This document shows positions 28,216 through 46,753 of a DNA stretch of 64,000 nucleotides, in pieces (position 1 is the stretch's first letter; each line of letters opens with the position of its first letter). The stretch is from positions 128,001 through 192,000 of the forward strand of contig CBDDCK010000005.1 of NCBI GenBank assembly GCA_965225855.1. Reading direction: 5' to 3'. Below the pieces are notes generated by a model that ran no database searches, was not told the DNA's origin, and was given only the letters and a program-made list of their open reading frames with translations. The stretch comes from Spirochaetia bacterium. Its GTDB lineage: Bacteria > Spirochaetota > Spirochaetia > SP-2023. A program made the position numbers and the translations under genes.

Positions 28216-28390
28216 TAGAAAAAATACTTTTCACTTTTCTTAAAACAAGTCCAGTATAAAACTCTACGCTGATGCAGGACGTGATAACTTTGTGCCATCG
28301 GACATGATAACTCGATTTTTTTCTACTTACCAAGGCTATAATTGGCAAAAGCAGCCTTGATAAATTTTTTAGTGCCTTGCTATGATATAG

Positions 28391-28430
28391 CTTTCCGCCT
28401 TGGATCAAGGCCTTGATCCAAGGCGGAAAG
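28391..28430. repeat. Perfect 40-bp palindrome without a loop
   Basis: CTTTCCGCCTTGGATCAAGG|CCTTGATCCAAGGCGGAAAG. Confidence 0.97.
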
Positions 28431-28679
28431 ATGTATTGCACCAATGCGGAACAATACTTTATACCAAGGCTATAATTAGTAAAAAGCAGCCTTGATAAAA
28501 AAACTTACCAAGGCTGCAATTGGCCAATGCAAGCGTTGCAACAACAAGATACAGCCTAATAGCCCAACAAAAAAGCCAACCAAGCATTGCTTACAGCATT
28601 TACTTGGTTGGCCTGCCCGCTAGCTTTCACTTAGCTGCTCTAAGAGCTATTGGGCAAGTAAGGTTAAACCAAACCCTAC

Positions 28680-30524
28680 TTACCTATTGAAAACTTTAAT
28701 ACCAGTGGTTGGGTCTTCTGGACTACCAGGTACAAATTCTGCTGCTGCTTCCAGGTTATATGCACCATTAGCATCACTATCACCATCGTTAACCAGTATC
28801 TTATTGACTTCCGCTTTTACATTACCGCTTAAAGTAATCCTTAAGCTTGTTGCACCTGCACCAGAACCTGTGGCTTTGTTTGCACCTGCAGTTGAGTGCC
28901 GTGGTAATGAGTATCTCTTTCTACCATCACCAGATACAAGCGTCAATTTGCTAAAGTCCCAGTCTGCAACTGCTCTCGGTAACCTGCTACCACTAATAAA
29001 TAACTCGCCTGTATTAGCTATGTAGGTTACGGAGTTGATCTGGCTTACGTAGCCACTAACGGTAATAGGATTGCTTGTGTCTTCTGCGCTACCAACTGCA
29101 AAGCCTGCTGCTGCTTCCAGGTTGTATGCACCAGTATTATCACTATCACCAGTCTTAACCAGTATCTTCTCGGCTTCCGCTTTTACACTACCGCTTAAAG
29201 TAATAGTTAAGTAGGTTGTACCTGCACGAGAACCTGTGGCTGTGTTTTCACCTGCAGTTTCGTGCTCGGGTAATGGGTATCTCTTACTACCATCACCGGA
29301 TACAAGCGTCAATTTGCTAAAGTCCCATCTTGCAATTGATGTCGGTAACTTGATACCTATAATATATAACTCGCCTGTATTAGCATCGTAGGTTACGGAG
29401 GTGATGCTGGCTGTATACCCGCTAACGGTAATAGGATTGGTTGTGTCTGCTGCGCTACCACCTGCAAAGCCTGCTGCTGCTTCCAGGTTGTATGCACCAG
29501 CATCATCACTATCACCATCGTTAACCAGTATCTTCTCGGCTTTGGCTTTTACACTACCTAGTAACTGAATATCTAAGCCTGTTGCACTTGCACTAGAACC
29601 TGTGGCTGTGTTTCTATTTTCAAAACCTATGGCTCTGTTTTCTTTACCTGTTGAGTGCCGGGGTAATGGGTATCTATTAGTACCGTCACCGGATACAAGC
29701 GTCAATTTGCTAAAGTCCCAGCCTGTAACTGCTTTTGGTAAATTAGTACCTGTAATCACTAACACGCCTGTAACAACATTGTAGGTTGCACGGGTAATTG
29801 CGGCTTGTTCGACTTGTTCGTCTTTAGGTTGCTTAGGCGACTGCTCTTCGACTTGTTCGACTTGTTCGACTTGTTCAGCTTGTTCGACTTGTTCGTCTTG
29901 TTCGTCTTGTTCGTCTTTAGGTTGCTTAGGCGACTGCTCTTCGACTTGTTCGACTTGTTCAGCTTGTTCGACTTGTTCGTCTTGTTCGTCTTGTTCGTCT
30001 TTAGGTTGCTTAGGCGACTGCTCTTCGACTTGTTCGACTTGTTCGTCTTCAGCTTGTTCGGCTGCGGGTACATTCCTAACGTCCAAGTCTTTAGGTGTAT
30101 TTAAACCCGCCCAAGCACCAGTGCCAACGCTAAGCAACCCTTTTTTTAGACCATTGCTATCCATACCGTCCTTGGCCTCAAGAGTAGCTTTATGTTGATC
30201 GGTAAGTCTAAGCCAAAGCGCTGTGCCATCGCTTTTAATACGGTACTTACCTTGTTCAAGACCGTTACTATTTACCCCAGTGGCTGGGTCATCTGCAGTA
30301 TAGGAACTTAAGGCTACGCCATCTAACGTGATAGTTTGGATTTGCGCTTCTGTAGGACTTAAGTTAGAACCTTGTACGGTTAACAGCGCCGTAGCAAAGT
30401 CGTAGATGGCGTTATTGATAGTCGGCCCAGAAGATCGATCATCGTCATCGGGTGGTGCGCAGGCAAAGGCCATAAAGGCCAGTAGCCAGGCTAATGGCAA
30501 TAAAAATAGTTTGAGCTTATACAT
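28680..30524 (-). CDS. Modular surface lipoprotein, paralog 2 (1 A module, long EQ linker, 3 B modules)
   Basis: Signal MYKLKLFLLPLAWLLAFMAFA-C; same modules as paralog 1. Confidence 0.88.
   Translation of the reverse strand: MYKLKLFLLPLAWLLAFMAFACAPPDDDDRSSGPTINNAIYDFATALLTVQGSNLSPTEAQIQTITLDGVALSSYTADDPATGVNSNGLEQGKYRIKSDGTALWLRLTDQHKATLEAKDGMDSNGLKKGLLSVGTGAWAGLNTPKDLDVRNVPAAEQAEDEQVEQVEEQSPKQPKDEQDEQDEQVEQAEQVEQVEEQSPKQPKDEQDEQDEQVEQAEQVEQVEQVEEQSPKQPKDEQVEQAAITRATYNVVTGVLVITGTNLPKAVTGWDFSKLTLVSGDGTNRYPLPRHSTGKENRAIGFENRNTATGSSASATGLDIQLLGSVKAKAEKILVNDGDSDDAGAYNLEAAAGFAGGSAADTTNPITVSGYTASITSVTYDANTGELYIIGIKLPTSIARWDFSKLTLVSGDGSKRYPLPEHETAGENTATGSRAGTTYLTITLSGSVKAEAEKILVKTGDSDNTGAYNLEAAAGFAVGSAEDTSNPITVSGYVSQINSVTYIANTGELFISGSRLPRAVADWDFSKLTLVSGDGRKRYSLPRHSTAGANKATGSGAGATSLRITLSGNVKAEVNKILVNDGDSDANGAYNLEAAAEFVPGSPEDPTTGIKVFNR
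29803..30062 (-). repeat. Nested coding VNTR: 9-bp units (EQV/EQD/EQA) within higher-order units containing SPKQPKD
   Basis: Repeated ttgttcgac / ttgttcgtc / ttgttcagc and three copies of ttaggttgcttaggcgactgctc. Confidence 0.95.
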
Positions 30525-30952
30525 AAGCAATACCTCCAACAATGGATAAAGATTGGCCAACCCATACGGGCTAGTGTACAGTGCCCCATTTTGCTAGGGG
30601 GGGTGTTGCGTCAAGGCCTATATAAGCTTTTTGCAAGTTTTTTTGTGCTTTTTTTATGTTTTGGGCACTTTTTTTGTGTGTTAGTGTTGTAAGGTGGTTA
30701 AAAATCCATGCCAATCAAAAGGCTTGAGATTATTTGAGATACCTTGAGATTGCTTGAGATACCTTGGGTAAAAATTTGTAATACGCTAGACGCAGTCCGG
30801 GTGTTGCGTTGCGTTTCGTATGAAAGTATAAGAATTTGAGTTTTTTGTATCGCAGTACAGCCCAGTTTTTAGCAAAATAATACAATACAATTTTTTGCGA
30901 TTTTTTTAGAGACTGCCACAGTCTCATTGGAAAATCCCTAGGTTGCCAATCA

Positions 30953-31018
30953 AAAAAGCTAGTAAGGTTTTCAGTCAAAACCTTACTAGCTTTTTTCAGA
31001 AACCTTACTAGCTTTTTG
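30953..31018. repeat. Three copies (two direct, one inverted) of AAAAAGCTAGTAAGGTTT
   Basis: The same triple arrangement occurs at 44503-44568 inside the other cassette. Confidence 0.9.
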
Positions 31019-31401
31019 AGACCGTGGCCCGTTACCATGATATTTTGAAAGCATATTGTTGCCCAATTACTGCCGACAATGGCCCATAGGCCGAAAAACA
31101 AAAATTTTTTACTTGTTCCATTTGTGGATTCAGCCGAAAGGCATAAAAAAAGCGGTGCATGGTTTGGTTATCCTGGCACCGCTTTGGCTTTTTGAAGTTT
31201 TGAGCGTTTTTTCTCTGGTTTGGTGTTAAAAATGGATTCTGGCTTTTTCTCGTGCAATGAAAATTTTTTACTTTTTTATTTTGGTTTTACTTTTTTATTT
31301 TGGAAAGTAAGCCAATTTTACCTTCCCATTTGTTCCAAAAAATCCCGAGTTATCACGTCCTATCCCGTTAAGTTATCATGTCCTCTTTCAGAAAGTCTGT
31401 G

Positions 31402-31470
31402 CTTTGCCTTTTTGATATTAAAAGTTTAGGCTAAGCACTTGGCTTTACTTATACTTTAGGGTATATTGGG
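31402..31470 (+). promoter_or_regulatory. Copy of a repeated promoter module (TTGGCT-17 bp-TATATT)
   Basis: Near-identical to the reverse complement of about 16480-16530. Confidence 0.6.
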
Positions 31471-31500
31471 CTAAATTTTATCTACAATGTAGCCAAGACA

Positions 31501-31590
31501 ATGACCGATCAAGAATTAAAAGACTTAGTAGCCGGCGTAGCCATTGCCCAAGACCAAACGATTAAGCAAATCAGAGACTTAAGAGCTTTC
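31501..31590 (+). pseudogene. N-terminal fragment of a coiled-coil / PD-(D/E)XK-like (DUF3782-type) protein
   Basis: MTDQELKDLVAGVAIAQDQTIKQIRDL, cut off by another promoter-module copy. Confidence 0.5.
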
Positions 31591-31591
31591 C

Positions 31592-31700
31592 ATTTGCCTT
31601 TTTTGTTGGGTGCTAGGTCAAACCAAACTCTTGCTTTGATTTTTTACTAAAAGTTTAAGCTAAGCACTTGGCTTTATTTATGCTTTAGGGTACACTGGTC
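31592..31700 (+). promoter_or_regulatory. Third copy of the promoter module (TTGGCT-17 bp-TACACT), upstream of the ECH gene
   Basis: Aligns over about 100 bp with the reverse complement of 16480-16585. Confidence 0.6.
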
Positions 31701-31817
31701 CAGTATAAAATAAACTAAGGAATAGCCGAGTCTCTGAAGTATTTAGGTTCTTATACAATTATTGAAACAAATAAGTTTTACTTGCACTAGTTTAACTATT
31801 CCCGTAAAGTATCTGCT

Positions 31818-32561
31818 ATGATTGAAGTAATCGAAAAGCAATCGGATATGGTTATTGTGCAAATGAACGAGACCGAAGGCCCGAATATTTTTACAGAAAA
31901 GTTTGTATCTAAATTTATCCATATTTGGCAACAATTATGCAAAGTTATCAAACCGAAAGTAGTTATTTTGCAAGGGCGCAGTGATGTATTTTGTGCCGGA
32001 GGTGCCAAAGACACACTCATAGGATTAACCGAAGGCCGTATTAGCGTAGATGATCTAATTATTACAGATTTCATTGTCCAAGCTCCTTTCCCCGTTATTG
32101 CGGCTATGGAAGGCCATGCGATGGGAGGTGGACTTGTTATGGCTGCAGCTTGCGATATAGTACTTGCTTCACACGAAAGCCGTTATGGTGCAGTATTTAT
32201 GAATATGGGATTTACTCCCGGTATGGCGACTACAACTTTATTACCCCAACTGATGGGGCCGTACCTTGCAGCCGAAATGATGTATACTGGCAAACGTTTC
32301 AAAGGAAAGGAACTAGAGGGAAAAGGCTGTAATATAAACTATATAATACCGAAAGCCGAAGTACTGCCTAAAGCTAACGATATAGCCGGACAAATGGCTG
32401 AAAAGCCCAAAGAAAGTTTATATTTACTCAAACATAGCCTTGGAGCTGTAAAGAAAAAGCTTGTAGTGGAAGCCCGTTTACAAGAAGATTTAATGCATAA
32501 AATTTCTTTTAACTTACCAGAGACACAGTCTATAATTAAAGAATTTTATGCAGGCAACTAG
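31818..32561 (+). CDS. PksI-like enoyl-CoA hydratase/decarboxylase of polyketide beta-branching
   Basis: FCAGG, PVIAAMEGHAMGGG, FMNMGFTPGMATT, LAAEMMYTG. Confidence 0.82.
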   Translation: MIEVIEKQSDMVIVQMNETEGPNIFTEKFVSKFIHIWQQLCKVIKPKVVILQGRSDVFCAGGAKDTLIGLTEGRISVDDLIITDFIVQAPFPVIAAMEGHAMGGGLVMAAACDIVLASHESRYGAVFMNMGFTPGMATTTLLPQLMGPYLAAEMMYTGKRFKGKELEGKGCNINYIIPKAEVLPKANDIAGQMAEKPKESLYLLKHSLGAVKKKLVVEARLQEDLMHKISFNLPETQSIIKEFYAGN

Positions 32562-32587
32562 CAAATAAATCGAACTAGGAGTTTATT

Positions 32588-33427
32588 GTGTTTACTATTA
32601 ACATGCAAAAAAAAAATGTATTAATTACTGGAGGAACCAAAGGTATTGGCTTAGGGGCTGCAAAATACTTTGCCCAAGCAGGGGCCCAAGTATACCTTAC
32701 TTATAAATGGGGTTCTGCCGATATGCAAGCAATTCAATCCCAATTTGAGCAAGAATTGAAAGGTTTAGCTCCCATATTTATTCAAGCAGATGTTTCTCAT
32801 GAAGAAGACACCTTAGAAGTAATGGCTGAAATTGCCCAACATTGTGATTTTTTAGATGTATTTATTAGCAATGTTGGTTTTGCCTTAAAAACAGAAAGCC
32901 TTGATGATTATAAAAAGCGTTCACTATATAAAACTTTGGATTATAGTTCTTGGCCGATGGTTGATTACTGCCAACAAGCAAAAAAACAATTTGGTAAATA
33001 CCCCCGTTATGTTTTAGGCGTATCCAGTAACGGCCCAGAACATTACTACCCAGGCTATGATTTTGTAGCAGCTTCCAAAGCTATGTTAGAATTTTTTGGC
33101 CGCTATCTAGCTGTACATTTACAAAAAGAAGGTTCTTGCGTTAATGTTGTTCGGTTTGGTACGGTAAAAACCGAATCTTTTGAATTTATTTTTGGCGATG
33201 AATTTTTTGAGTTTTCGCAAAAAAATGGTGTTGACCCTAAATTCCAATTAACTGCAAATGACTGTGGCCAAGTATTATTTGCCCTTTGTTCTGGTTTATT
33301 TGATTCAATGAATGGACAACTATTACAGGTTGACCATGGCCTGCCATTTCAGGACAATCTGATGAACCATTTTAACTTTCTACAAAATCACAATTCTTGT
33401 GATCATTGGTATGTCGATGCTGGCTGA
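32588..33427 (+). CDS. SDR-family reductase, FabL-like enoyl-ACP reductase
   Basis: TGGTKGIG; YDFVAASKAMLEFFGRYLA (Y-x6-K spacing). Confidence 0.72.
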   Translation: MFTINMQKKNVLITGGTKGIGLGAAKYFAQAGAQVYLTYKWGSADMQAIQSQFEQELKGLAPIFIQADVSHEEDTLEVMAEIAQHCDFLDVFISNVGFALKTESLDDYKKRSLYKTLDYSSWPMVDYCQQAKKQFGKYPRYVLGVSSNGPEHYYPGYDFVAASKAMLEFFGRYLAVHLQKEGSCVNVVRFGTVKTESFEFIFGDEFFEFSQKNGVDPKFQLTANDCGQVLFALCSGLFDSMNGQLLQVDHGLPFQDNLMNHFNFLQNHNSCDHWYVDAG

Positions 33428-33466
33428 ATACATTGATAAAACTAAAGCCTTACAAGGAGCAATATT

Positions 33467-33712
33467 ATGCAAAAAAAAGAAATCATTGCGGTAATTAAAC
33501 AACAGATTGTGGACAATTTGGATGATGTCAATATTGAGGATATAGACCCCAATAAGTCTATGAAAGACTATGGAGCTAATAGTTTGGATATTATAGAAGT
33601 GGTCTCTTGTTCTATGCGTGAATTAAAGATAAAGGTTCCACGAGCAGAATTGGCTGATATTACTACTATTGACGAATTGGCGAATAAATTTGTGGAAGTT
33701 GTCAATTCTTAA
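33467..33712 (+). CDS. Stand-alone acyl carrier protein, AcpK-like donor ACP
   Basis: SMKDYGANSLDIIEVV: the GANS phosphopantetheine motif typical of beta-branching donor ACPs. Confidence 0.85.
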   Translation: MQKKEIIAVIKQQIVDNLDDVNIEDIDPNKSMKDYGANSLDIIEVVSCSMRELKIKVPRAELADITTIDELANKFVEVVNS

Positions 33713-33724
33713 AACTAATTACTT

Positions 33725-33775
33725 AAAAAAATGCCTCTGTAAAATATTTATTCTTATTTGCGGAGGCATCTTTTT
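33725..33775. terminator. Bidirectional intrinsic terminator between convergent genes
   Basis: A-run, ATGCCTCTGTAAA...TTTGCGGAGGCAT, T-run. Confidence 0.7.
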
Positions 33776-33799
33776 ATATGAATTGCAACTATTTTTAGG

Positions 33800-34753
33800 C
33801 TAGATTTTTTGAGTAATAAGAGTAGCGAATATACCTCTAATTGGCAGGCCGTCTTCTGCAACTTTGCCTAGGTGTCCGTAACTTTCGCGATATTCAAGAA
33901 TCGTCCAGCCTTGTTGCATATATAAATATTTTACTTGATCACTGTGAGGTAAGAAATGAAAGCTGCTAGGCCAAATGATTTTTGGGTTCTCACTGGCAAT
34001 GGGGAATACCAACAGATGCAAAGCTCCGCTAGAAGCCCTTTCCATGCAGTGGGATAGTAACGCTGGAGAGGCATCCGCCTGAAGGAATTGTAAGCTAACG
34101 ATAGCCATGGTAATATCGTGGGCTGGAGCTTCACGCCAAGTATTGAGATCGACTTGTTGGACTATGAGTTTCTTCTCTAAATTTTCGGCCTTAGACATGT
34201 TTTCCAATGTTTTAAGACTATTAATATTTTTATCTATTCCCATTACCTTGTATTCTTGATTTTTATCCCCAGCGAAGATGACAGAATTTCGCCCACGACC
34301 ACAACCTAAATCGAGAATTTGAAGCGGGCGCAAACCCAATTGGGGGTGAAGTTGAATGTAATAAGATTTAAAATAAGAAACTTCGCTATGAGGCTGCCCA
34401 AGACCGTTATCATGATTAAATTTTTTATTGAAATATAGATTGGGAATAGTGGAAAATTTTGCAACTCCAGTAATATCAGCTCCTAAATTTTTGAGCTGAA
34501 AAAACTGCCCTGGATAAAGTAAATAAGACTTTGTATCGTTTAAGCTTTTTTCACTACAGAAGCTTAATTGTAAATTCTCTTGTGATTTGCGAGTAGGGCC
34601 CAATTTATATAGGGAAAGTTGCAATTGGGAAGAATGCTCTGGCTTTAATTGCAACCAAGTGCCTTCTGGTACAAGTTGGATATCTTCTTTTGCCAGCGAG
34701 GCTAATGGCACAGTGCGAAATACAATAAGATGCTCTGTTTTGAATTGTAACAT
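33800..34753 (-). CDS. tehB: TehB-like SAM-dependent methyltransferase
   Basis: GTW..L N-terminal domain, PHSEV, LDLGCGRGRNS, GWTILEYRE..GHL, ATLITQK. Confidence 0.78.
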   Translation of the reverse strand: MLQFKTEHLIVFRTVPLASLAKEDIQLVPEGTWLQLKPEHSSQLQLSLYKLGPTRKSQENLQLSFCSEKSLNDTKSYLLYPGQFFQLKNLGADITGVAKFSTIPNLYFNKKFNHDNGLGQPHSEVSYFKSYYIQLHPQLGLRPLQILDLGCGRGRNSVIFAGDKNQEYKVMGIDKNINSLKTLENMSKAENLEKKLIVQQVDLNTWREAPAHDITMAIVSLQFLQADASPALLSHCMERASSGALHLLVFPIASENPKIIWPSSFHFLPHSDQVKYLYMQQGWTILEYRESYGHLGKVAEDGLPIRGIFATLITQKI

Positions 34754-35124
34754 GAGTCGCTCCTAAATTAATGAAAATATATCGGTATTATGTGAGCCAA
34801 ATATTTAGTTAATGACAAAACTAATGACAAAACTTTATTTTTTAGAAAAATAAAGGTAGGAAAATTTATTCAACAGATTATATTTACAAGAAAGGCACAA
34901 AGCTAGAACTATCTTGGGTAAAGAATATAAATAAAATTAACAATAGTGGTTCTAATATTGGGCCAAAACTCAAAGCAAATGAAGAATTATATTTGATTAT
35001 CTAATTTTAGTGATTCTATTATTGCCATATAAAATTTTTCTTGTAAACTAGCGGGATACATAAAAGTGTAGCAGGTTTTGCTATCTTGATTACATTTTTT
35101 TAGACTTTCTAAACAGAGGATTAT

Positions 35125-35541
35125 ATGTTTGAGCGAACTACATTTGGGAAAACTTTAGGAATACTTGAGCGATCGATGCAAGTGGCAAGTATTCGCCGTG
35201 ATGTTATTGCCAATAATTTGTCGAATGCGAGTACTCCAAATTTTAAGCGTAGCCAATTGTCTTTTGAGGCTCAGCTAGGTAGGGCTTTGGCATCAGAACA
35301 AGAGCCCATACTGCCACTCAAGCAAACAAATGCTCGACATATCAATCCTTTTGAATCATATGATTATCGTAAAATTAAGCCACGCCGTACTTTAGATTAT
35401 CTAAGTCAAAGTGATAATAATGGCAATAATGTGGATTATGATCAAGAAGTAGGAGATGCTTTAAAAAATCAAATGCGTTATGAGTCAATGGCAGCATCTA
35501 TTGGTTTTCATTTTGGACAAATAAAAAAAATTTTATCTTAG
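35125..35541 (+). CDS. flgB: Flagellar basal-body rod protein FlgB
   Basis: IANNLSNASTPNFKRS, NNGNNVD. Confidence 0.96.
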   Translation: MFERTTFGKTLGILERSMQVASIRRDVIANNLSNASTPNFKRSQLSFEAQLGRALASEQEPILPLKQTNARHINPFESYDYRKIKPRRTLDYLSQSDNNGNNVDYDQEVGDALKNQMRYESMAASIGFHFGQIKKILS

Positions 35542-35568
35542 AAGATTTTTTGTTAAGGTGTAAATATT

Positions 35569-36027
35569 ATGGGAATTTTTTCAGCAATTAATATTGCTAG
35601 CTCGGGTATGAGCGCACAGAATATTCGCAAAGATGTAATTGCGAACAATATAGCGAATGCAAATACTACGCGTACGCCAGAAGGTGGCCCTTTTCGCCGA
35701 AGCCGGACGATTTTAAAAACGGCCAATTCACAACCTTATTGGCGGTCGCCATTTTTACCAGAAGCTTTAGATAATGGTATTGGTAAAGGGGTGATTGTTG
35801 ATAAGATCGAAAAAGATATGAGTGATTCTCGATTAGTTTATGATCCCACCCACCCCGATGCACAGAAAACTGGAAGATTGGCTGGATATGTGGAATACCC
35901 CAACGTCAATATTATGGAAGAAATGGTTGATATGACAGAAGTTCAACGTGCTTATGAAGCAAATGCTCGGATTGTAGATGGTTCTAAAAGTATGTATAAA
36001 AGTGTTGTTGATCTTTTGCGTGGATAA
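35569..36027 (+). CDS. flgC: Flagellar basal-body rod protein FlgC
   Basis: NIANANTTRTPEGGPFRR, YDPTHPDA, GYVEYPNVN. Confidence 0.97.
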   Translation: MGIFSAINIASSGMSAQNIRKDVIANNIANANTTRTPEGGPFRRSRTILKTANSQPYWRSPFLPEALDNGIGKGVIVDKIEKDMSDSRLVYDPTHPDAQKTGRLAGYVEYPNVNIMEEMVDMTEVQRAYEANARIVDGSKSMYKSVVDLLRG

Positions 36028-36056
36028 TATTATTTTAATTCTTTTAGAGTTTATAT

Positions 36057-36416
36057 ATGAACATAATTCGTGATTTACCTAACTTTCAAGCTAAAACTAT
36101 TCAGCGTCCTGATACCAATTTACGCAGTACCAATCCTTTGCACCTTACAAAAGATGGTCAAATGCCCGGTGTTATTGATAATCAAAAGTCAGAGCTTGGT
36201 ACTTTTGGTGATATGGTTTTAGATGCTTTAGGCCAAACAAATAATCAAATTTTAGACAGTCAATTATTGCAACAGCAGGCTATTGTAAGCCCTGATTCTG
36301 TTGATCCTTCTACTATAGTAGTGAGTATGCTCAAAGCTGATATGAGTTTGAGCTTGACTAAAGCGGTAATTGATCGCGCCATTGCAGCCTATAAAGAACT
36401 AACTACTGTTCGTTAG
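36057..36416 (+). CDS. fliE: Flagellar hook-basal body protein FliE
   Basis: Position; KADMSLSLTKAVIDRAIAAYKEL. Confidence 0.9.
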   Translation: MNIIRDLPNFQAKTIQRPDTNLRSTNPLHLTKDGQMPGVIDNQKSELGTFGDMVLDALGQTNNQILDSQLLQQQAIVSPDSVDPSTIVVSMLKADMSLSLTKAVIDRAIAAYKELTTVR

Positions 36417-36467
36417 TGAATAGATTTTTTAGTAGACTATAAGGAATTTTTGTGAGGGGCGTATATA

Positions 36468-38171: not shown

Positions 38172-38235
38172 AATTAAGTACTTCGCCAGCAATTAGATAC
38201 CGGAGGAGTTAAATAGTTCAGAGGAGTATTGTTAT

Positions 38236-39267: not shown

Positions 39268-39300
39268 GCGAGAATGAGAGAAGGAGCGGATAAATAGAAT

Positions 39301-40353
39301 ATGAATAAGCGAGACAAGATTTTTCACCCCACGGAAATTATTGATCTTACTCGTCAATCGCAGCGAGAAATTAATATTGCGATACCGAAATTTGACGATG
39401 TTGAAGAAGTTGTTGAGGTATATACAGGCCCTAGTCCTGATGATATACGCCAAGAGATTGCTGGATTGAGAGAACAGTGGCAACGCCAAAAATCACAAGA
39501 GCAAGAAAATCTGCAGTCTAATTTAAATATGCAACGCTATAATTTGAATGAAGAGTTGGAAGAGTTGCGGAAAAATGCTCAAGATAATGCGGAACAAATT
39601 TTGCATAATGCGAAGCAAGAAGCTCAAAATATTGTTGCTCATGCACAGCAGCAAGCTGAGGAAATGCTATCAAATTCCAAATTAAAAATAGAAATTTTGG
39701 AAGATGAAGGTAGGGAAAAAGGTCTGAAAGAAGGTATCAAAGAAGGTTATGAACAAGGTTTTGCTGAAGTAAGGCGGCTGACAAGCCAATTACACTATAT
39801 GATATCGGGGGTGTTGCAGCGTCGCGAAGAAATTATTGCTTCACTAGAGAGTGATTTGATAGATTTGACTTTGTTGATTGCCCGTAAGGTAGTGAAAGTC
39901 CTTTCAGAAAACCAGAAAGATATTGTTATTTATAATACTTTAGAGGCTCTCAAAAAATTGCGTTGTCGTGGTAGTGTAACGTTGCGTGTCAATCCCGAAG
40001 ATTTGAATGTTTGCTTAGAAAATAAGGAACATTTCATACGAGAAGTGGAAAATCTAGAAGGTGTCCATGTAGTTGAGGATCAAATTTTACAGCGGGGTGG
40101 TTGCATTGTAGAAAGCGACTTTGGTGAAATTGATGCTCGGATTTCTTCACAATTGCGTGAAGTTGAAGATAAAATTCTTTCTGTTAGGCCTATGCGTAGA
40201 CGCAGTCCGCGGCGGCTTAGCGAAGATATTATTCGTAAAGATGAAGAAGAATTGGAAAATTTTGTGAATTCCATCTCTGCTGAAAACGAAAGTTCGGCTG
40301 TTGTTTCCAGTACATCACTGCAGAATGATTCTTCCAATGTAATTTCTCCGTAA
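39301..40353 (+). CDS. fliH: Flagellar assembly protein FliH
   Basis: GxxxG repeats, VNPEDL, GGCIVESDFGEIDARISSQL. Confidence 0.95.
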   Translation: MNKRDKIFHPTEIIDLTRQSQREINIAIPKFDDVEEVVEVYTGPSPDDIRQEIAGLREQWQRQKSQEQENLQSNLNMQRYNLNEELEELRKNAQDNAEQILHNAKQEAQNIVAHAQQQAEEMLSNSKLKIEILEDEGREKGLKEGIKEGYEQGFAEVRRLTSQLHYMISGVLQRREEIIASLESDLIDLTLLIARKVVKVLSENQKDIVIYNTLEALKKLRCRGSVTLRVNPEDLNVCLENKEHFIREVENLEGVHVVEDQILQRGGCIVESDFGEIDARISSQLREVEDKILSVRPMRRRSPRRLSEDIIRKDEEELENFVNSISAENESSAVVSSTSLQNDSSNVISP

Positions 40354-40459
40354 TATATGAAAGCCAAAGTTTGGCAAGTCAAAATTTGGCAAGCGGAAAA
40401 TAAAAAATCGAAAACTTCCGTTCACTTTTACTGCATTTGTTATTGCAGAAGGCGTTTTT

Positions 40460-41881
40460 ATGGATACCTTTGATTCTGTATTGCGTTGTCAAGCTGCTCT
40501 TTATAGCTTGGATACAATTCGGTATGGTGGCAGAATTGAGCGAATACAAGGACAAATGCTTTATTGTAATGGGCCTGTTGCTCAAATTGGTGAAATCTGT
40601 CGTATATTCCCCTCAAAGTATAATCCTTATACTCGTCATAGCGTTAGTTCCGAAATAACAAACGAAACTGTACCTGAATTTTATGGTGAAATTGTGGCTT
40701 TGGAGCGAGAGCATTCCTATATACAGCTCTATGATCAACCGAATGGGCTTCGTATTGGCGATGGAGTGATTGCTTTGGGTCAAGAATTAGAAGTCCCTGT
40801 TTCGGAAGAGCTGCTCGGTCGAGTGGTAGACCCTTTGGTTAGGCCTTTAGATAATGGACCGCCAATTACGGCTTTCGTGAAGTATCCTGCTCAACGCGAA
40901 GCGCCAGAAGTAATGTCGCGCCCCCCTATTGATAGGCAATTGGGGGTTGGTGTACGGGCTATTGATGGTTTATTGCCTTTAGGAAGAGGCCAGCGTATTG
41001 GGATTTTTTCAGGTTCTGGTGTTGGGAAATCCACGCTATTGGGTATGATAGCTCGCAATACTGCGGCTGATATAGTGGTCATTGCTTTGATAGGAGAACG
41101 TAGCAGGGAAGTTCGTGAATTTTTAGAGCGAGATTTAGGGAAAGAAGGCAGAGAACGTTCTATTTTGGTTGTTTCGACATCGAATAGTCCAGCACTTTCT
41201 CGAATCCGTGGGGCCTACAGTGCAACAGCAATTGCCGAATATTTTCGCGATCAAGGCAAAGATGTTCTTTTGCTTTTTGATTCTGTAACCCGTTTTGCAA
41301 CGGCAGGGCGAGAAGTAGGTCTTGCTGTAGGTGAGCCTCCGACAGTACGAGGATTCCCTCCCTCTGTTTTTAATAGTCTTCCGTTATTATTAGAGCGTGC
41401 TGGTCGCAATGAAGTTGGCTCGATTACGGGAATTTATAATGTGTTGGTTGAGGGCGGGGATTTGGACGAGCCGGTATCGGATACGATTCGAGGTATTTTG
41501 GACGGGCATATTATTTTGTCGCGGCAATTGGCCGAACGCTACCATTATCCTGCTATTGATGTTCCTGCCTCTGTTTCTCGTTTGGAACAAAAAATTGCAG
41601 TACCAGAATTTATGCCTATTATAGCTCACGTAAAACGCTTATTATCGGTGTATCGTGAACGTCAAGATTTAATTGAAATTGGTGCCTATGCGTCAGGTAG
41701 TAATCCTTTGCTCGATGAAGCTATTGAGCGTTTAGCAGATTTGCAACAATTTTTACAACAAAGCATTCATGAAAATTCATCACTAGAGCAGACATCTCAA
41801 ATGTTGCTTGAATTAGTTGGTGGAGGTTTGCAAAATGAAAAAGTTCTGGATAAAGTGCAACGTTTGAGTGGGGTTAGATGA
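40460..41881 (+). CDS. fliI: Flagellar export ATPase FliI
   Basis: GSGVGKST, LIGERSREV, DSVTRFA, ILDGHI. Confidence 0.97.
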   Translation: MDTFDSVLRCQAALYSLDTIRYGGRIERIQGQMLYCNGPVAQIGEICRIFPSKYNPYTRHSVSSEITNETVPEFYGEIVALEREHSYIQLYDQPNGLRIGDGVIALGQELEVPVSEELLGRVVDPLVRPLDNGPPITAFVKYPAQREAPEVMSRPPIDRQLGVGVRAIDGLLPLGRGQRIGIFSGSGVGKSTLLGMIARNTAADIVVIALIGERSREVREFLERDLGKEGRERSILVVSTSNSPALSRIRGAYSATAIAEYFRDQGKDVLLLFDSVTRFATAGREVGLAVGEPPTVRGFPPSVFNSLPLLLERAGRNEVGSITGIYNVLVEGGDLDEPVSDTIRGILDGHIILSRQLAERYHYPAIDVPASVSRLEQKIAVPEFMPIIAHVKRLLSVYRERQDLIEIGAYASGSNPLLDEAIERLADLQQFLQQSIHENSSLEQTSQMLLELVGGGLQNEKVLDKVQRLSGVR

Positions 41882-42327
41882 AACAATTTCATTTTACTTT
41901 GGAAACTTTACGTACACTCCGTGAAGCAAAATTGGAACAACAGGAACATCATTTGGCTGTGGCCGTTACAGCATATAATCGCAAAAAGGGAGAACTAGAT
42001 GCGAATCGCAAAGCCTGTGCTAAAACTTGGGATAATTTAAATAGCGATCCCAGGCAATCTCATGCAGATTATTTATATGTGCAGCGTTTAGAAAAGCAAA
42101 GTCAGGAAATCGATGCAAAAATGCATGAAACGCACTTGGCAATGGAAGAAGAAAAAAAGCGGTATGCTGCTATGCGCAAAGACCTTCGAGTATTGGAGAA
42201 ACTGCGTGAGAATCAGTACCGTGAACACAAGAGAAAATTGGAATTAGAGCGAGATGAAGAAGCTGCTGAAATGAGCCGAGCGCACAAATTATTCAAATTT
42301 TTGAGTACAATTCCATTTATAGGGTGA
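41878..42327 (+). CDS. fliJ: Flagellar export chaperone FliJ
   Basis: MKQFHFTLETLRTLRE N-terminus, coiled coil, position after fliI. Confidence 0.85.
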   Translation: MKQFHFTLETLRTLREAKLEQQEHHLAVAVTAYNRKKGELDANRKACAKTWDNLNSDPRQSHADYLYVQRLEKQSQEIDAKMHETHLAMEEEKKRYAAMRKDLRVLEKLRENQYREHKRKLELERDEEAAEMSRAHKLFKFLSTIPFIG

Positions 42328-42340
42328 AAAAGGGAACTTG

Positions 42341-42955
42341 ATGATTCAAACGTTAATAAAAAGTATATTACTAGTAATTTTAATTATACTAATTTTGATC
42401 GGCGGTTTAGTTATTTTTGATTGGTTGGGGCTTATCAGTTTGCGCCAAGAATTGGCGCCTATTTTACGTTTAGTTGGTTTGAGTGCCCCTTCTGCTAAAA
42501 GTAATTTCGGTGAAATTGGAGCGGGTAGTAATTTTCTCAATGATGTGCGTTTGCGCCAGCAGTTAGAATCTTTGGAACTCAAGCGCAAGAATTTAGAAGA
42601 ACAAGAAAAAAAACTGCTCCAGCGTTCGGACGAATTAGATGAGAGAGAATTAGCTATTAACCAAGCAGAAGAACAGCTAGAGCAGCAGTTAATATCTTTG
42701 GAAGAAAGAGAAAATTTATACAGCAATCGCAATACCAAGGTAGAGCAGATTGCCCGCAATTTTAATGGAATGCCACCGGCTCAAGCTGTGGCTCAAATGA
42801 ACGAAATGGATGCTCTTTTGGTTGTGGATGTCTTACGTTCTGCCGATCGAATTGCCGTTGAAGAAAATGCCAATTCGCTGGTCTCTTATTGGATATCGCA
42901 AATGCCAGCTGCAAGAGGTGCAGAAATCAATAAATTGTTGGTAGAAAAGCCTTAA
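42341..42955 (+). CDS. flbB: Periplasmic flagellar collar protein FlbB-like
   Basis: N-terminal TM (FDWLGLI), coiled coil, GMPPAQAV and SLVSYWISQMPA; position after fliJ as in spirochaete operons. Confidence 0.78.
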   Translation: MIQTLIKSILLVILIILILIGGLVIFDWLGLISLRQELAPILRLVGLSAPSAKSNFGEIGAGSNFLNDVRLRQQLESLELKRKNLEEQEKKLLQRSDELDERELAINQAEEQLEQQLISLEERENLYSNRNTKVEQIARNFNGMPPAQAVAQMNEMDALLVVDVLRSADRIAVEENANSLVSYWISQMPAARGAEINKLLVEKP

Positions 42956-42975
42956 TATTTTATGCTTAAAAATAT

Positions 42976-44118
42976 ATGGCTAAATCTTTTGGCAACGGCA
43001 TGCTTTCTGAACGAATACAGTTGAAAGCCATTTTTTGGCATTCAATAATGTTTTTGTTGCCTGTCTATTGTGCGTGGCAAGGGTTGTATTTACAAAGGCA
43101 AGTTTGGTTTGGCTTGATGTTGTGGTCTTTGATGGCAATCTTTTTTCTGTTTTTTGTGAAGATGGAAAGCTTGTGTTTGCAAAGCAATGAAAATTCAGAA
43201 CAAAAAAAGAATTATTTTTTATCATTGATCGAAAAGATATTGTTGTTTTTTGGGCGTGCTAAGCTTCAAAAGACAGTAGATACAAGCGAACTCAATACAA
43301 GGCAGAATGTTATTTTTGGAGACTATGCCAATAACGGCAAAGGTCAAATTGCTTGGACAGAACCCGATGATGGTATCAGTATTGAGGCTTATTTAAAACA
43401 GCAGAACAAAGGGAAGGGCAAAACAGAAACAAAAACTGGTTTTGATTGGAACTGGAAAAATAGTAATTCCATTGATGATGAATCGCACTTACTTTTGGAA
43501 AAACAGCGATTTATATCCCCTCAACAATATTTGTGCAATTGGTTCCATGCAGGAATCAAACTATTAAATAAATTTTGGTCGGATTGGGAACAAATATGGT
43601 GCCTTTTTTTCCCTGCTAAAACGTCTCGGTTTTTTGCCTTGGTTTTATTTTGGCTTAGTAGTTTATTATGGTTCCCTGTTAGTTATTGGCTATTGCACAG
43701 CGCGAATGTCAATATTTTAGAATTGGGAGGTTTTATTTATTATGGCCAATCTGCTCGGGGGAGTTTGCTTGTTTTGCTGCTTTTTGCCAATTTGTGTTTG
43801 CCTATATTGACAACTCAAGTCGGTAATAAATTACAGCGTAGTCTTTCGCCGATAGGAAAGTTTCGCATTGTTTATCGTATTTGTGATATTTTCATAGAGT
43901 TGGGTTATTCTCTGGCAAGTTTGCTAGTGCTTTGGTTTTTTATTGCTAGCCGTTTTGGGGTTGCCAGCGGATTGGCTTTGTTATTAATTTTTGCCAATTT
44001 ATATCTAAGTTTGAATTTCCGGCGTAATAACTTAAAAAATGCTTCTAAGCTACTGTTATGGTTTCGTCAAGTGATTTTTCTTAGTATCGCTTTGGGTGTA
44101 TCTTTACATCTCTTATGA
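42976..44118 (+). CDS. Hypothetical integral membrane protein
   Basis: 380-aa ORF with several hydrophobic segments; no recognised motif. Confidence 0.65.
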   Translation: MAKSFGNGMLSERIQLKAIFWHSIMFLLPVYCAWQGLYLQRQVWFGLMLWSLMAIFFLFFVKMESLCLQSNENSEQKKNYFLSLIEKILLFFGRAKLQKTVDTSELNTRQNVIFGDYANNGKGQIAWTEPDDGISIEAYLKQQNKGKGKTETKTGFDWNWKNSNSIDDESHLLLEKQRFISPQQYLCNWFHAGIKLLNKFWSDWEQIWCLFFPAKTSRFFALVLFWLSSLLWFPVSYWLLHSANVNILELGGFIYYGQSARGSLLVLLLFANLCLPILTTQVGNKLQRSLSPIGKFRIVYRICDIFIELGYSLASLLVLWFFIASRFGVASGLALLLIFANLYLSLNFRRNNLKNASKLLLWFRQVIFLSIALGVSLHLL

Positions 44119-44281
44119 CTTATTGGGGTATTAGTCTCAATCCATAGTTATAAATCAGTCAAGGCCCCAAAAAAACTCCCAAAACATAGTTAGACTCCCC
44201 TGGCAGCAGCTTACTTTGTGTTGGGGGGTGGCTTTAATACTCCATCTTTAAGAATACGCCAAGTTCTGTGGGCAAGTTCAA

Positions 44282-44352
44282 TTACATTAATTTGAGCAAG
44301 CCCAAGGTGCTCATAATCAAACCAATAACTTCCCCCCAACCAACAACCCAAG
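44282..44352 (-). pseudogene. 3' fragment of the Bdr-like coiled-coil gene family
   Basis: Ends IGLIMSTLGLLKLM*, homologous to the end of 15950..16477. Confidence 0.7.
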
Positions 44353-44644
44353 GAACACTGTATGGCCAAAGTTGTTTGCGCAAAGAGCCCCGACTAAATA
44401 GTTGATCCGGAACATGATAACTGAACTGGATAAGAAAGACGCGATAACTCGGGATTTTTTTGGGACAAATGGAAGGTAAAAATTGGCTTACTTTCCAAAA
44501 TAAAAAAGCTAGTAAGGTTTCCAAAAAAAGCTAGTAAGGTTTTGACTGAAAACCTTACTAGCTTTTTTGATTTGCAACCTAGGGATTTTCCAACAAACCC
44601 GATCAACACTGTATAGCCAAAGCTAAAGTACCCTAACACTAAGA

Positions 44645-44735
44645 CACAAAAAAAGTACCCCAAACATAAAAAAAGCACAAAAAAACTTACAAAAAGCTTA
44701 TATGGGCCTTGACGCAACACCCCCCCTAGCAAAAT
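44645..44735 (+). promoter_or_regulatory. Lipoprotein promoter: phased A-tracts, TTGACG (44709-44714), C7 (44720-44726), CAAAAT (44730-44735)
   Basis: Conserved before all three paralogs. Confidence 0.6.
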
Positions 44736-44798
44736 AGGGATTTACACACTAGCCCGTATGGGTTGGCCAATCTTTATCCATTTTTGGAGGTATTGCTT

Positions 44799-46517
44799 AT
44801 GTATAAGCACAAACTATTTTTATTGCCAGTAGCATTGCTACTGGTCTTTATGGCCTTTGCCTGCGCCCCGCCCGATGACGATGATCGATCTTCTGCGCCG
44901 TCTAAGCCGACTATCAATAACGCCATCTACGACTTTGCTACGGCTCTGTTAACCGTACAAGGTTCTAACTTAAGTCCTACAGAAGCGCAAATCCAAACCA
45001 TCGTAGTAGATGGCGTAGCCTTCAGTTCCTATACTGCAGATGACGATGCCACTGGGCCAGATAATAGCAATCTGGCAAAAGGTAAGTACCGTATTAAAAG
45101 CGATGGCACAAAGCTTTGGCTTAGACTTACCGATCAACATAAAGCTGCTCTTCAGACCAAGGTGGGTATGAATACCAATGGTCTAAAAAAATGGTTGCTT
45201 ACTAGCACTGGTGCTTGGGCGGGTTTAAATACACCTAAAGACTTGGACGTTAGGAATGTACCCGATAAGCAGTCTAAAGTATCCGATGACAATCAGCCAT
45301 CTAAGCAAACTGAAGACGAACAAGTCGAACAAGCTGAAGAAGTCGAAGAGCAGTCGCCTAAGCAACCTAAAGACGAACAAGCTGAACAAGTCGAAGATAA
45401 GCAGTCTAAGACCGAAACCGAAGATCAGTCGCTTAAGCTACCCGAAGCCGCAATTACCCGTGCAACCTACAATGTTGGCACGGCGCTGTTAACTTTACAA
45501 GGTACTGACTTAGGTAGTGCGACCCAAGCCCAAATCCAAACCATCGTGGTAGATGGCGTAGCCTTAAGTTCCTATACTGCCACAGCCACTGGGGCAGATA
45601 GTCGCGGTCTTGCAAAAGGTAAGTACCGCCTGCATAGCGATGGCACAGCGCTTTGGCTTTACCTTACCGATGACGATAAAGATGCTCTGAATGGCAAGAC
45701 AGGTATGGATAGCAATGGTCTAAAAGATGGGTTGCTTACTAGCACTGGTGCTTGGGCGGGTTTAGATACAGCCAAACCCTTAACCGTTAGTGGAAACCCC
45801 GCACCCGCAATTACCCGTGCAACCTATGATGTAAATAGAGGCGTGTTAGTGATTACAGGTACTAATTTACCGACAACAGTTGCAGAATGGGACTTTAGCA
45901 AATTGACACTTGTATCCGGTGATCGTACTAATAGATTGACATTACCTCGGTTCATATTAGGTATAAGCAAAGCCACAGGTTCTGCAGTAAGTGCAACAAG
46001 CTTAACGATTACTTTAAGCGGTAGTGTAAAAGACAAAGCCGATGCTATATTGGTTAACGATGGTGTTCGTGATGAGTTTGGTGCATACAACCTGGAAGCA
46101 GCAGCAGGATTTGCCGGTGGTAGCGCTGAAGACACAACCAACCCGATTACCGTTAGTGGGTATACCATCATCAACGCATCATACAGCGCTAATACAGGCG
46201 AGTTAACTATTTATGGTAGAGGTTTACCAACAACAATTGCAGAGTGGGACTTTAGCAAATTGACGATTGTATCCCGTGATGGTAGTAAGAGATACACATT
46301 ACCACGGCACTCAACTGTAGGCGCAAACAGAGCCACAGGTACTGTAGCAGCTATAAAAGGCTTAAAGATTACTTTAAGCGGTAGTGTAAAACAGAAAGCC
46401 GAAGCTATAATGCAGGAGAGTTTTACTGTATACAAATTTGAAGCAGCAGCAGGATTTATACCTAGTAGTCCAGAAGAAGTTATTCTTACTAGTTATATTA
46501 GTAGGGATTCTAAGTAA
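44799..46517 (+). CDS. Modular surface lipoprotein, paralog 3 (2 A modules + 2 B modules)
   Basis: Signal MYKHKLFLLPVALLLVFMAFA-C; same modules; intermediate-length EQ linker. Confidence 0.88.
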   Translation: MYKHKLFLLPVALLLVFMAFACAPPDDDDRSSAPSKPTINNAIYDFATALLTVQGSNLSPTEAQIQTIVVDGVAFSSYTADDDATGPDNSNLAKGKYRIKSDGTKLWLRLTDQHKAALQTKVGMNTNGLKKWLLTSTGAWAGLNTPKDLDVRNVPDKQSKVSDDNQPSKQTEDEQVEQAEEVEEQSPKQPKDEQAEQVEDKQSKTETEDQSLKLPEAAITRATYNVGTALLTLQGTDLGSATQAQIQTIVVDGVALSSYTATATGADSRGLAKGKYRLHSDGTALWLYLTDDDKDALNGKTGMDSNGLKDGLLTSTGAWAGLDTAKPLTVSGNPAPAITRATYDVNRGVLVITGTNLPTTVAEWDFSKLTLVSGDRTNRLTLPRFILGISKATGSAVSATSLTITLSGSVKDKADAILVNDGVRDEFGAYNLEAAAGFAGGSAEDTTNPITVSGYTIINASYSANTGELTIYGRGLPTTIAEWDFSKLTIVSRDGSKRYTLPRHSTVGANRATGTVAAIKGLKITLSGSVKQKAEAIMQESFTVYKFEAAAGFIPSSPEEVILTSYISRDSK

Positions 46518-46594
46518 GTAAGGTTTGGTTGTTGCAACGCTTGCATTGGCAATTGCAACCTTGGTAAGTTTTTTATCAAGGCTGCTTTTGCCAA

Positions 46595-46639
46595 TTATAG
46601 CCTTGGTATGGAGAAAATACCAAGGCTATAAATTTTTTT
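46595..46639 (+). terminator. Intrinsic terminator of paralog 3
   Basis: TTATAGCCTTGGTAT-N7-ATACCAAGGCTATAA followed by a T7 run. Confidence 0.75.
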
Positions 46640-46692
46640 ATTAAGGCTACAAATTTTTTTGTCAAGACTGTAAATTTTTTTATTAAGGCTGC
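46622..46692. repeat. 21-bp tandem repeat (AAGGCTATAAATTTTTTTATT-type), 3-4 copies
   Basis: AAGRCT at 46622, 46643, 46664 and 46685. Confidence 0.8.
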
Positions 46693-46753
46693 TTTTGCCA
46701 ATTATAGCCATTCTGGAAAGTAGAAAAAAATCGAGTTATCACGTCCTGCATCA

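What the first reader, a model, noticed from the sequence alone, without database searches (positions are those of the whole stretch)
28270..46753. Transposon-ended, transposase-less cassettes that each carry one variable surface lipoprotein gene
Seen: paralog 2 (28270-31390) and paralog 3 (44403-46753) are each bracketed by inverted ends of roughly the form TGA-N4-GGAC(A/G)TGATAAC. A second copy of the 12-bp core follows 23 bp inward in cassette 2, 27 bp inward at the left end of cassette 3, and has been cleanly lost at its right end. Homology between the two loci stops at the terminal TGA/TCA, and the right end of cassette 3 abuts a beheaded rmuC. The only intact cargo is promoter + lipoprotein + terminator. 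Known: TG...CA termini with iterated ~22-bp-period sites characterise DDE elements of the Mu, Tn7/Tn5053 and IS21 types. Inference: a non-autonomous element disperses and amplifies an adhesin/antigen family using a recombinase supplied in trans. I do not know of such a system being described. No target-site duplication is visible, so later rearrangement or a different mechanism is possible.
Basis: partly seen in the sequence, partly recalled or inferred. Interest (0 to 1): 0.85.

Follow-up and report, generated by a model that had tools for sequence, protein, structure and literature searches.

The report
Natural mini-Mu cassettes carrying surface lipoproteins
The two cassettes are surface-protein genes wrapped in the ends of a jumping phage that sits elsewhere in the same chromosome, and such phage-ended cassettes helped scatter a very large adhesin-like gene family around this bacterial genome.

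Summary
The genome has 63 such ends (31 left, 32 right). 57 of 63 flank a member of a 108-locus lipoprotein family in fixed polarity (chance 1.6). They are the ends of a ~36-kb B3-type transposable prophage (C5:1.258-1.294 Mb), which holds the genome's only rve-type DDE transposase and a MuB-like ATPase. 5 of 18 paired ends have a perfect 6-bp target duplication (chance 0.03), the B3 signature. A congener's orthologous element has the same end design, at two ends only. These are natural mini-Mu insertion cassettes.

Limits: neither window cassette keeps a duplication. Homology runs past cassette 3's left TGA into four other loci. 68 of 108 paralogs have no end, so recombination also spreads the family. 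No empty site was seen in reads. The fully assembled prophage lacks its left terminal site, and activity is not shown.

Closest known: Tn3-ended TALE cassettes of Xanthomonas, and laboratory mini-Mu. The scan noted natural mini-Mu relics in other genomes (unchecked); none was described as carrying a host gene family. Verdict: new variant of a known kind.

The parts
28270..31390 (-). Cassette 2: natural mini-Mu (left arm, promoter region, lipoprotein gene, terminator, right arm), 3121 bp, no target duplication
28270..28332 (+). Right (R) end: TGA, two 12-bp sites 23 bp apart (28277, 28300); about 63 bp shared with the prophage right end
28486..28517 (-). Terminator-like hairpin downstream of the lipoprotein gene
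   Evidence: consensus match only
28680..30524 (-). Lipoprotein paralog 2, 614 aa: signal peptide with AFA-C lipobox, acidic Q/E linker, four predicted Ig-like beta-sandwich domains
30590..30614 (-). Family-wide conserved promoter-like box (TTGACG followed by a C7 tract), 90 bp upstream of ATG
   Evidence: function inferred
31121..31390 (-). Left (L) end: TGA, two 12-bp sites 23 bp apart (31372, 31349); 261 bp at 95% identity to the prophage left arm
44332..44402 (+). Flank outside cassette 3's left TGA, shared with four other left ends; a module of the lipoprotein upstream mosaic that also occurs without any end
44403..46753 (+). Cassette 3: natural mini-Mu, 2351 bp, no target duplication
44403..44508 (+). 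Left (L) end of cassette 3, two sites 27 bp apart; about 98 bp similar to the prophage left arm
44709..44735 (+). Conserved promoter-like box with C7 tract
   Evidence: function inferred
44799..46517 (+). Lipoprotein paralog 3, 572 aa
46559..46631 (+). Two terminator-like hairpins
   Evidence: consensus match only
46711..46753 (-). Right (R) end of cassette 3 with one 12-bp site (one 23-bp unit lost)
46755..47605 (+). rmuC pseudogene, cut at about residue 94 and frameshifted; head not found
17071..19428 (-). Lipoprotein paralog 1, same family and promoter box but no phage ends (one of 68 end-less loci)

Best explanation
The cassettes are natural mini-Mu elements. A B3-type transposable prophage of this genome left its two ends around a lipoprotein gene: 70-270 bp of left arm and 63-73 bp of right arm, each with TGA and two transposase sites 23 bp apart. 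The phage transposase and its MuB-like ATPase, acting in trans, moved this unit to new sites, cutting with a 6-bp stagger at loosely palindromic NNTANN targets. Later recombination among about 100 similar loci, and deletions next to the ends, separated ends from their duplications, left solo ends and exchanged gene parts. This is why the two window copies have no duplication and why rmuC is beheaded. The cargo is a lipid-anchored chain of Ig-like domains, most likely an adhesin or variable surface antigen. SHOWN: identity of the ends with the prophage ends; single rve transposase with an invariant DDE triad; fixed polarity; 6-bp duplications. INFERRED: action in trans; replicative mechanism; cause of the lost duplications; adhesin role. 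The route explains at least the 40 end-bearing loci, not necessarily the 68 without ends.
For: Ends: 63 ends, 57 of 63 beside a family gene with L upstream and R downstream, 1 in the other polarity; random placement gives mean 1.6, max 7. Exact core 73 times against 0-1 in 5 shuffles. Helper: the only PF00665 match in the genome is a 586-aa ORF, phrog_310 transposase, with a phrog_296 ATPase, GemA, Mor, terminase, head and tail genes. The best phage matches include B3 and BcepMu at 29-30%. D144, D238 and E274 are invariant in 7 of 7 aligned proteins including B3. The prophage's terminal DNA matches the cassette arms at 77-97%. Duplications: direct repeats only at k=6, in 5 of 18 facing pairs, 0 of 18 at k=3-5 and 7-9; null mean 0.028, max 2 in 20,000. 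B3 makes 6-bp duplications (PMC8705779). Control: the orthologous element in congener G002 (54% transposase identity) has the same TGA-N4-site-23 bp-site design at both ends and only those 2 matches in its genome. 26 of 32 right ends leave phage sequence at 63-73 bp, which suggests few founders. Cargo: tandem beta-sandwich model (pLDDT 73.5); the same domain is repeated in giant DUF4347/cadherin/RTX-type proteins.
Against: 13 of 18 pairs have no perfect duplication, including both window cassettes. 68 of 108 loci have no end, and only about 4 loci lacking a left terminus keep a piece of phage left arm. End-bearing genes are not a separate group: nearest neighbour end-bearing for 14 of 40. 5 left ends and 2 right ends share flanks beyond the terminus, which transposition alone does not give. 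The three distant L/R 6-mer matches are not above chance (expected 1.0, P=0.08). No empty site in reads of a second study at the one duplication-flanked cassette tested; one contig there carries 20 bases of the right end at the same junction, below the tool's 31-base rule. The fully assembled prophage lacks its left terminal site and has split virion genes. No near-identical cassette pairs: best full-length protein identity 88%, so there was no very recent burst, or fast reshuffling hides it.
Confidence: 0.82

Rival explanations
1. Hitch-hiking relic. The family expanded mainly by host recombination (ectopic gene conversion among repeat-rich flanks). The phage ends were captured once or a few times, transposed a handful of times, and were then copied passively with neighbouring DNA. 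Transposition is real but minor and over. This rival concerns the share of the expansion and is compatible with the phage origin of the ends.
For: 68 of 108 loci lack ends and have ragged, mosaic flanks with no common terminus. The sequence into which cassette 3's left end is set occurs empty upstream of end-less paralogs, so these existed first. Shared flanks at 7 ends. No empty site seen. The left terminal site of the C5 prophage is lost.
Against: 58 distinct flanks among 63 ends, with a palindromic TA-centred bias (48 of 116 symmetrised centres), need many independent strand-transfer events. Five intact duplications lie far apart. Transposase and ATPase frames are intact.
Confidence: 0.45
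2. Solo-end scars. Full prophage copies inserted beside existing lipoprotein genes and were then deleted, leaving single ends; the gene never moved as cargo.
For: 23 loci have only one end. Fragments of phage genes survive in two end-bounded regions. Partial prophage copies lie at two contig ends.
Against: Independent insertions would not give 57:1 polarity, one shared right-arm junction in 26 of 32 ends, or 6-bp duplications that enclose L + gene + R.
Confidence: 0.07
3. The ends belong to a non-phage element (Tn7/Tn5053, IS21, or a site-specific recombinase system) whose enzyme is elsewhere or lost.
For: TG..CA ends with repeated sites are shared by these families (general knowledge). The assembly is 94% complete. 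Two tyrosine recombinases exist.
Against: The ends are continuous with the prophage and conserved at the congener's element. No 5-bp duplication in 18 pairs. No IstB over cut-off, no Y1 transposase, no serine resolvase.
Confidence: 0.04
4. Assembly artefact: repeats pasted at false junctions.
For: The assembly breaks inside prophage copies (C3 start, C4 end).
Against: Paralogs are at most 88% identical. Duplications are locus-specific. Runs of a second study hold the family and the end region at depths tens of times above unique DNA.
Confidence: 0.02

Closest known systems
Mobile insertion cassettes (MICs), especially the TALE-carrying MICs with TnXax1 (Tn3-family) ends in Xanthomonas (PMC4337579, passages read)
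   Same: A passenger gene of one variable family between transposon ends, with no transposase; cognate enzyme elsewhere; about 45% of family members in cassettes there (55 genes) and 37% end-linked here (40 of 108); solo ends; duplications at only some copies; many copies without ends.
   Different: The ends come from a transposable phage, not an IS or Tn3 element; left and right ends differ; 6-bp, not 5-bp, duplication; the cargo is a surface lipoprotein; all copies are in one genome and dispersed.
Laboratory mini-Mu / mini-D3112 (PMC8705779 passage; PMC5847225 abstract start in listing)
   Same: Phage left and right ends around foreign DNA, moved by transposase supplied in trans; can amplify the cargo in a chromosome.
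   Different: Natural; B3-type enzyme; arms of 63-270 bp; cargo is a host gene family.
Pseudomonas phage B3, BcepMu and Leptospira TG-CA prophages (B3/Tn552-type transposase)
   Same: For the helper: DUF3102-transposase-ATPase-DUF3164-GemA-Mor block, about 36 kb, TG..CA ends, 6-bp duplication.
   Different: Contractile-tail genes; early block in the middle; the C5 copy lacks its left terminal site and has split virion genes; 29-38% transposase identity to named phages.
MITEs and phage satellites ('hitchers', PMC11389934, passages read)
   Same: Depend on a helper's enzyme through DNA motifs only.
   Different: MITEs lack coding cargo. Satellites hijack packaging and carry their own genes; nothing here shows packaging. 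The review has 0 occurrences of 'Mu-like' or 'mini-Mu'.

Membership tests
Mobile insertion cassette (MIC) | Passenger gene between transposable-element ends, no own transposase | tested here: met
   17 loci with L + lipoprotein + R; no other long ORF in the window cassettes
Mobile insertion cassette (MIC) | Cognate transposase on a related element with the same ends | tested here: met
Mobile insertion cassette (MIC) | Target-site duplication | tested here: met
   6 bp at 5 of 18 pairs; not at the two window copies
Mobile insertion cassette (MIC) | Ends derived from an IS or Tn3-type transposon (as described in PMC4337579) | tested here: not met
   The ends are those of a prophage. It works like a MIC but is not an IS- or Tn3-derived MIC.
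Mobile insertion cassette (MIC) | Mobilisation in trans demonstrated | not testable with these tools
   Needs a bench assay; reads showed no empty site at one locus
B3-type transposable phage (helper) | B3-related DDE transposase | tested here: met
   30% to B3, E 3e-52; D144/D238/E274 invariant in 7 of 7
B3-type transposable phage (helper) | MuB-like ATPase, GemA, Mor | tested here: met
   phrog_296, PF06252, PF08765
B3-type transposable phage (helper) | 36-39 kb with head and tail genes | tested here: met
   about 36.1 kb; terminase, portal, capsid, sheath, baseplate
B3-type transposable phage (helper) | TG..CA at both ends and its own 6-bp duplication | tested here: not met
   C5 copy: right end intact, left terminal site missing; the other copies run off contig ends
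B3-type transposable phage (helper) | Intact virion genes, inducible particles | tested here: inconclusive
   C5 copy has split tape-measure and baseplate-J genes; the C4 fragment has a 344-aa J but a split tape measure; sequencing indels are not excluded
Tn7/Tn5053 | 5-bp target duplication | tested here: not met
   0 of 18 pairs at k=5
Tn7/Tn5053 | TnsA/TnsD/TniQ genes | not tested
   No search for these families was run
IS21 | IstA/IstB pair | tested here: not met
   No PF01695 match over cut-off; the single rve gene lies in the prophage; genome 94% complete
Phage satellite | Own integrase/replication genes and packaging into helper particles | not testable with these tools
   Cassettes carry no such genes; packaging cannot be tested

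The most novel reading that the evidence does not exclude
The host has domesticated a transposable phage as an engine for its surface repertoire. The prophage is pinned in place (left terminal site lost, virion genes decaying) while transposase and ATPase stay intact and still move lipoprotein cassettes. Each new copy is a self-contained expression unit with a C-tract promoter and a substrate for domain shuffling, giving a phage-driven antigenic-variation system that covers 8% of the genome.
Probability: 0.2. Interest if true: 0.9.

Novelty: new variant of a known kind. Interest (0 to 1): 0.72.

Why it matters
Mini-Mu elements are known as laboratory tools. Here a natural version appears to have captured a host gene and helped spread a family that now has 108 loci and fills 8.4% of the genome. 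This joins two things usually kept apart: transposable phages as genome shufflers, and the origin of huge variable surface-protein families in host-associated bacteria. It extends insertion cassettes to a new helper class. It is directly testable, because the ends, transposase, ATPase, target bias and duplication length are all defined, and a congener offers an unamplified control.

Tried and rejected
Empty sites in reads: one stretch (L168, with one duplication-flanked cassette and two end-less loci) was laid with 4 of 8 listed runs, all contigs. No joint skipping the cassette among the 15 shown (66 not shown), and contigs cannot show absence. No RNA holder listed. Empty sites in congeners: the neighbours of murJ and dnaJ differ in all 3 congeners, so synteny could not test 2 of the 5 duplicated sites. 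Joining distant L and R flanks that share a 6-mer: no joined junction matched another place in the genome, and 3 matches against 1.0 expected is not significant, so I dropped this as evidence, including the match between cassette 2's right flank and the left end at C5:1352036. IMG/VR scan with the transposase: no relative. The end pattern with 2 mismatches in 4 other genomes was at control level in 3. Lipoprotein not found in 40 relatives with one protein or in 3 congeners with a profile; congeners are 89-92% complete. Pfam gave no family for paralogs 2 and 3; Atlas hits were unnamed clusters. Fold matches are generic (best Z 8.9, rmsd 2.8, 95 aligned, SbsC). My search for ends of the other G001/G002 prophages returned only tandem repeats. 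A second fixed-ended element for the 68 end-less loci: no common terminus seen. Literature: searches listed no natural mini-Mu carrying a host gene family (titles and abstract starts only); one search found only a name list. The library lacks most subscription journals, and no supplements were read.
Full report
OBSERVATION. The 12-bp core occurs 6 times in the window with at most one mismatch, against 0.37 expected, in the positions and spacings stated. Each cassette holds one long ORF, a lipoprotein of 614 or 572 aa. The flanking 6-mers differ, so neither has a target duplication. rmuC begins abruptly two bases after cassette 3, at about residue 94 of a congener's protein; its head was not found. 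The two ends of a cassette are different left (L) and right (R) ends that share only the repeat block.

GENOME-WIDE PICTURE. The window is G000:C5:128001-192000 of a 2.71-Mb, 94% complete assembly. The exact core occurs 73 times, against 0-1 in five shuffles. Requiring a terminal TGA (one TAA) and the matching sub-terminal sequence gives 63 ends, 31 L and 32 R (25 inner-repeat rows were dropped). The lipoprotein family has 117 tblastn loci, 108 of them over 1 kb, covering 8.4% of the genome. 105 of 108 have the conserved start, and 102 of those encode 500 aa or more. 17 loci have both ends, 13 only L, 10 only R and 68 none. 57 of 63 ends lie beside a family gene with L upstream and R downstream, one lies in the other polarity, and random placement gives 1.6.

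TARGET DUPLICATIONS. Of 18 facing L/R pairs (17 single-gene cassettes and one 14-kb unit), 5 have a perfect direct repeat at exactly 6 bp and none at 3-5 or 7-9 bp. The column-shuffled null gives a mean of 0.028 and never exceeds 2 in 20,000 trials. The 14-kb unit matches at 5 of 6. The 58 distinct flanks have a palindromic bias with TA in the centre. Three further 6-mer matches between distant ends are within chance (expected 1.0) and are not used.

THE HELPER. The only PF00665 match in the genome is a 586-aa ORF at C5:1273165-1274925. It lies in a prophage of about 36 kb (C5:~1257680-1293766) with a MuB-like ATPase, DUF3102, DUF3164, GemA, Mor, repressor, terminase, portal, capsid, sheath and baseplate genes. 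Named phage relatives include Komp_PAO1_1 (37.5%), BcepMu (28.9%) and B3 (30.2%). D144, D238 and E274 are invariant in all 7 aligned proteins including B3; reading them as the catalytic triad rests on general knowledge of DDE enzymes. B3 makes 6-bp duplications (PMC8705779, 12 of 19 passages seen). The prophage's ends are the cassette ends: up to 261 bp of left arm at 95% and 63-73 bp of right arm at 92-97%. 26 of 32 R ends leave phage sequence at that point; 6 continue into phage DNA. The C5 copy lacks its left terminal site and has split tape-measure and baseplate-J genes. Further copies run off the ends of C3 (775 bp, 100%) and C4 (about 8 kb, 97-99%), each with its own flank, so an intact helper may be unassembled. 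No IstB over cut-off, Y1 transposase or serine resolvase was found; two tyrosine recombinases were.

INDEPENDENT CONTROL. 2 of 3 congeners encode related transposases. In G002 the orthologous element (54% identity) is bounded by TGA-N4-AGACGYGANAAC with a second copy 23 bp inward at both ends, and these are its only 2 matches. The motif is therefore the end of this phage lineage, amplified only in G000. The closest named genome holding a relative is Candidatus Haliotispira prima (L047), a spirochaete. That G000 is a related spirochaete is my inference.

CARGO. The proteins have a signal peptide with an A(L/F)A-C lipobox, an acidic linker, and variable numbers of two repeat types (15 architectures by motif count). 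The model of paralog 2 is a string of beta-sandwich domains (pLDDT 73.5, pTM 0.44) with generic Ig-like matches. All 91 near-length homologs lie on contigs of G000's sizes or on three short ENA contigs. A profile search finds the domain repeated in proteins of 1,000-7,400 aa; of 15 scanned, 9 have Pfam families, such as DUF4347, cadherin-like, RTX or a T9SS sorting signal. An adhesin or variable-antigen role is a fair inference, not a result. A TTGACN box with a C tract lies about 90 bp upstream in 104 of 105 loci (C7 in 84, C6 in 18); phase variation is a hypothesis.

RESULTS AGAINST A SIMPLE STORY. 68 of 108 loci have no end, ragged mosaic flanks and almost no phage-arm remnants. End-bearing genes are intermixed with end-less ones. 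Five L ends, including cassette 3's, share 70-480 bp beyond the TGA, and two R ends share 52 bp. The sequence in which cassette 3's L end sits occurs empty upstream of end-less paralogs, so such loci existed before that insertion and the junction was later copied by recombination. Contigs of a second study (runs X4, X5, X6) hold the family and the end region at high depth, which argues against artefact. They show no empty site at the one duplicated cassette tested, and one X4 contig carries 20 bases of the R end at the same junction, a hint (below the 31-base rule) that the insertion is shared. No two cassettes are near-identical. Current activity is not shown.

MECHANISM. Most likely (0.82): a transposable prophage donated its ends to a lipoprotein gene, probably by insertion of phage copies beside it and internal deletion. 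The unit was then moved many times by the phage transposase and ATPase in trans. Recombination between paralogs and deletions next to ends, a known by-product of Mu-type transposition (general knowledge), erased most duplications and produced solo ends and the cut rmuC. How much of the whole expansion is due to transposition is open; I put 0.45 on host recombination being the main driver.

COMPARISON AND NOVELTY. It works like a mobile insertion cassette. The closest case is the TALE-carrying cassettes with TnXax1 ends in Xanthomonas, which also show solo ends, partial duplications and end-less family members (PMC4337579, 12 of 17 passages seen). It fails the IS/Tn3 origin of those cassettes, because the ends are phage ends; structurally it is a natural mini-Mu. 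A 2024 review of helper-dependent elements has no occurrence of 'Mu-like' or 'mini-Mu' (PMC11389934, 12 of 43 passages seen). Searches listed no natural mini-Mu with a host gene family, but the library is incomplete. The scan's own unchecked notes report natural mini-Mu relics in other genomes, non-coding or with phage remnants, so natural mini-Mu as such may not be rare; the link to a 108-member surface family is the distinctive part. Verdict: real, new variant of a known kind, interest 0.72.

Noticed in passing
G000:C5:1027022-1041147 (L006:3022-17147): A 14.1-kb L...R unit with a 5-of-6 duplication. It holds two lipoprotein genes, a peptide ABC transporter operon, a MATE transporter gene and small phage fragments: a possible composite transposon carrying host genes.
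   Followed up: partly
G000:C5:1590138-1616622: An R end and an L end 26.5 kb apart face each other with the same 6-mer (ATTAGG) and enclose three more ends: a possible larger composite unit, not above chance alone.
   Followed up: partly
G002:C1:229792-257556 (L033-L035): The congener's orthologous element has intact ends, transposase, ATPase, lysis-like and contractile-tail genes, but no match to G000's terminase, portal, protease or capsid: a headless transposable element that may make a tailocin-like particle. No 6-bp duplication.
   Followed up: partly
G002:C1:257938-275672 (L034-L035): A tandem array of about 12 related ~280-aa lipoprotein genes right beside that element, a different family from G000's.
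   Followed up: no
G003:C1:1792527-1792545 (L045): A solo end-like site of the same phage lineage in a congener where the transposase search found no match.
   Followed up: partly
window 30590-30614 and 44709-44735; 104 loci genome-wide: C7/C6 tract in the conserved promoter-like box. A one-base loss at this place is seen in contigs of run X1, consistent with real C6 paralogs; possible slipped-strand switch.
   Followed up: partly
window 31300-31322 and 46700-46725; both ends of the G002 element: A third conserved sub-terminal motif, an ACTTTCC...GGAAAGT-type palindrome 55-100 bp from the termini, complete in G002 and partial in G000: possible host-factor or repressor site.
   Followed up: no
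G000:C5:1264372-1264473, 1292615-1292855 and about 20 other places: A dispersed 46-bp-period repeat that also sits next to the prophage's portal and baseplate-J genes; no Y1 transposase found.
   Followed up: no
window 31391-31700: Repeat modules and a short gene fragment outside cassette 2's left end, found at about 30 places, many near end-less lipoprotein loci.
   Followed up: partly
G000:C5:1594979-1598895: A lipoprotein gene between two R ends (one phage-type, one cassette-type): the only polarity exception.
   Followed up: no
G000 versus G001-G003: Gene neighbours of murJ and dnaJ differ among all four genomes, although G002 and G003 share the gene upstream of murJ; G000 looks heavily rearranged.
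   Followed up: partly
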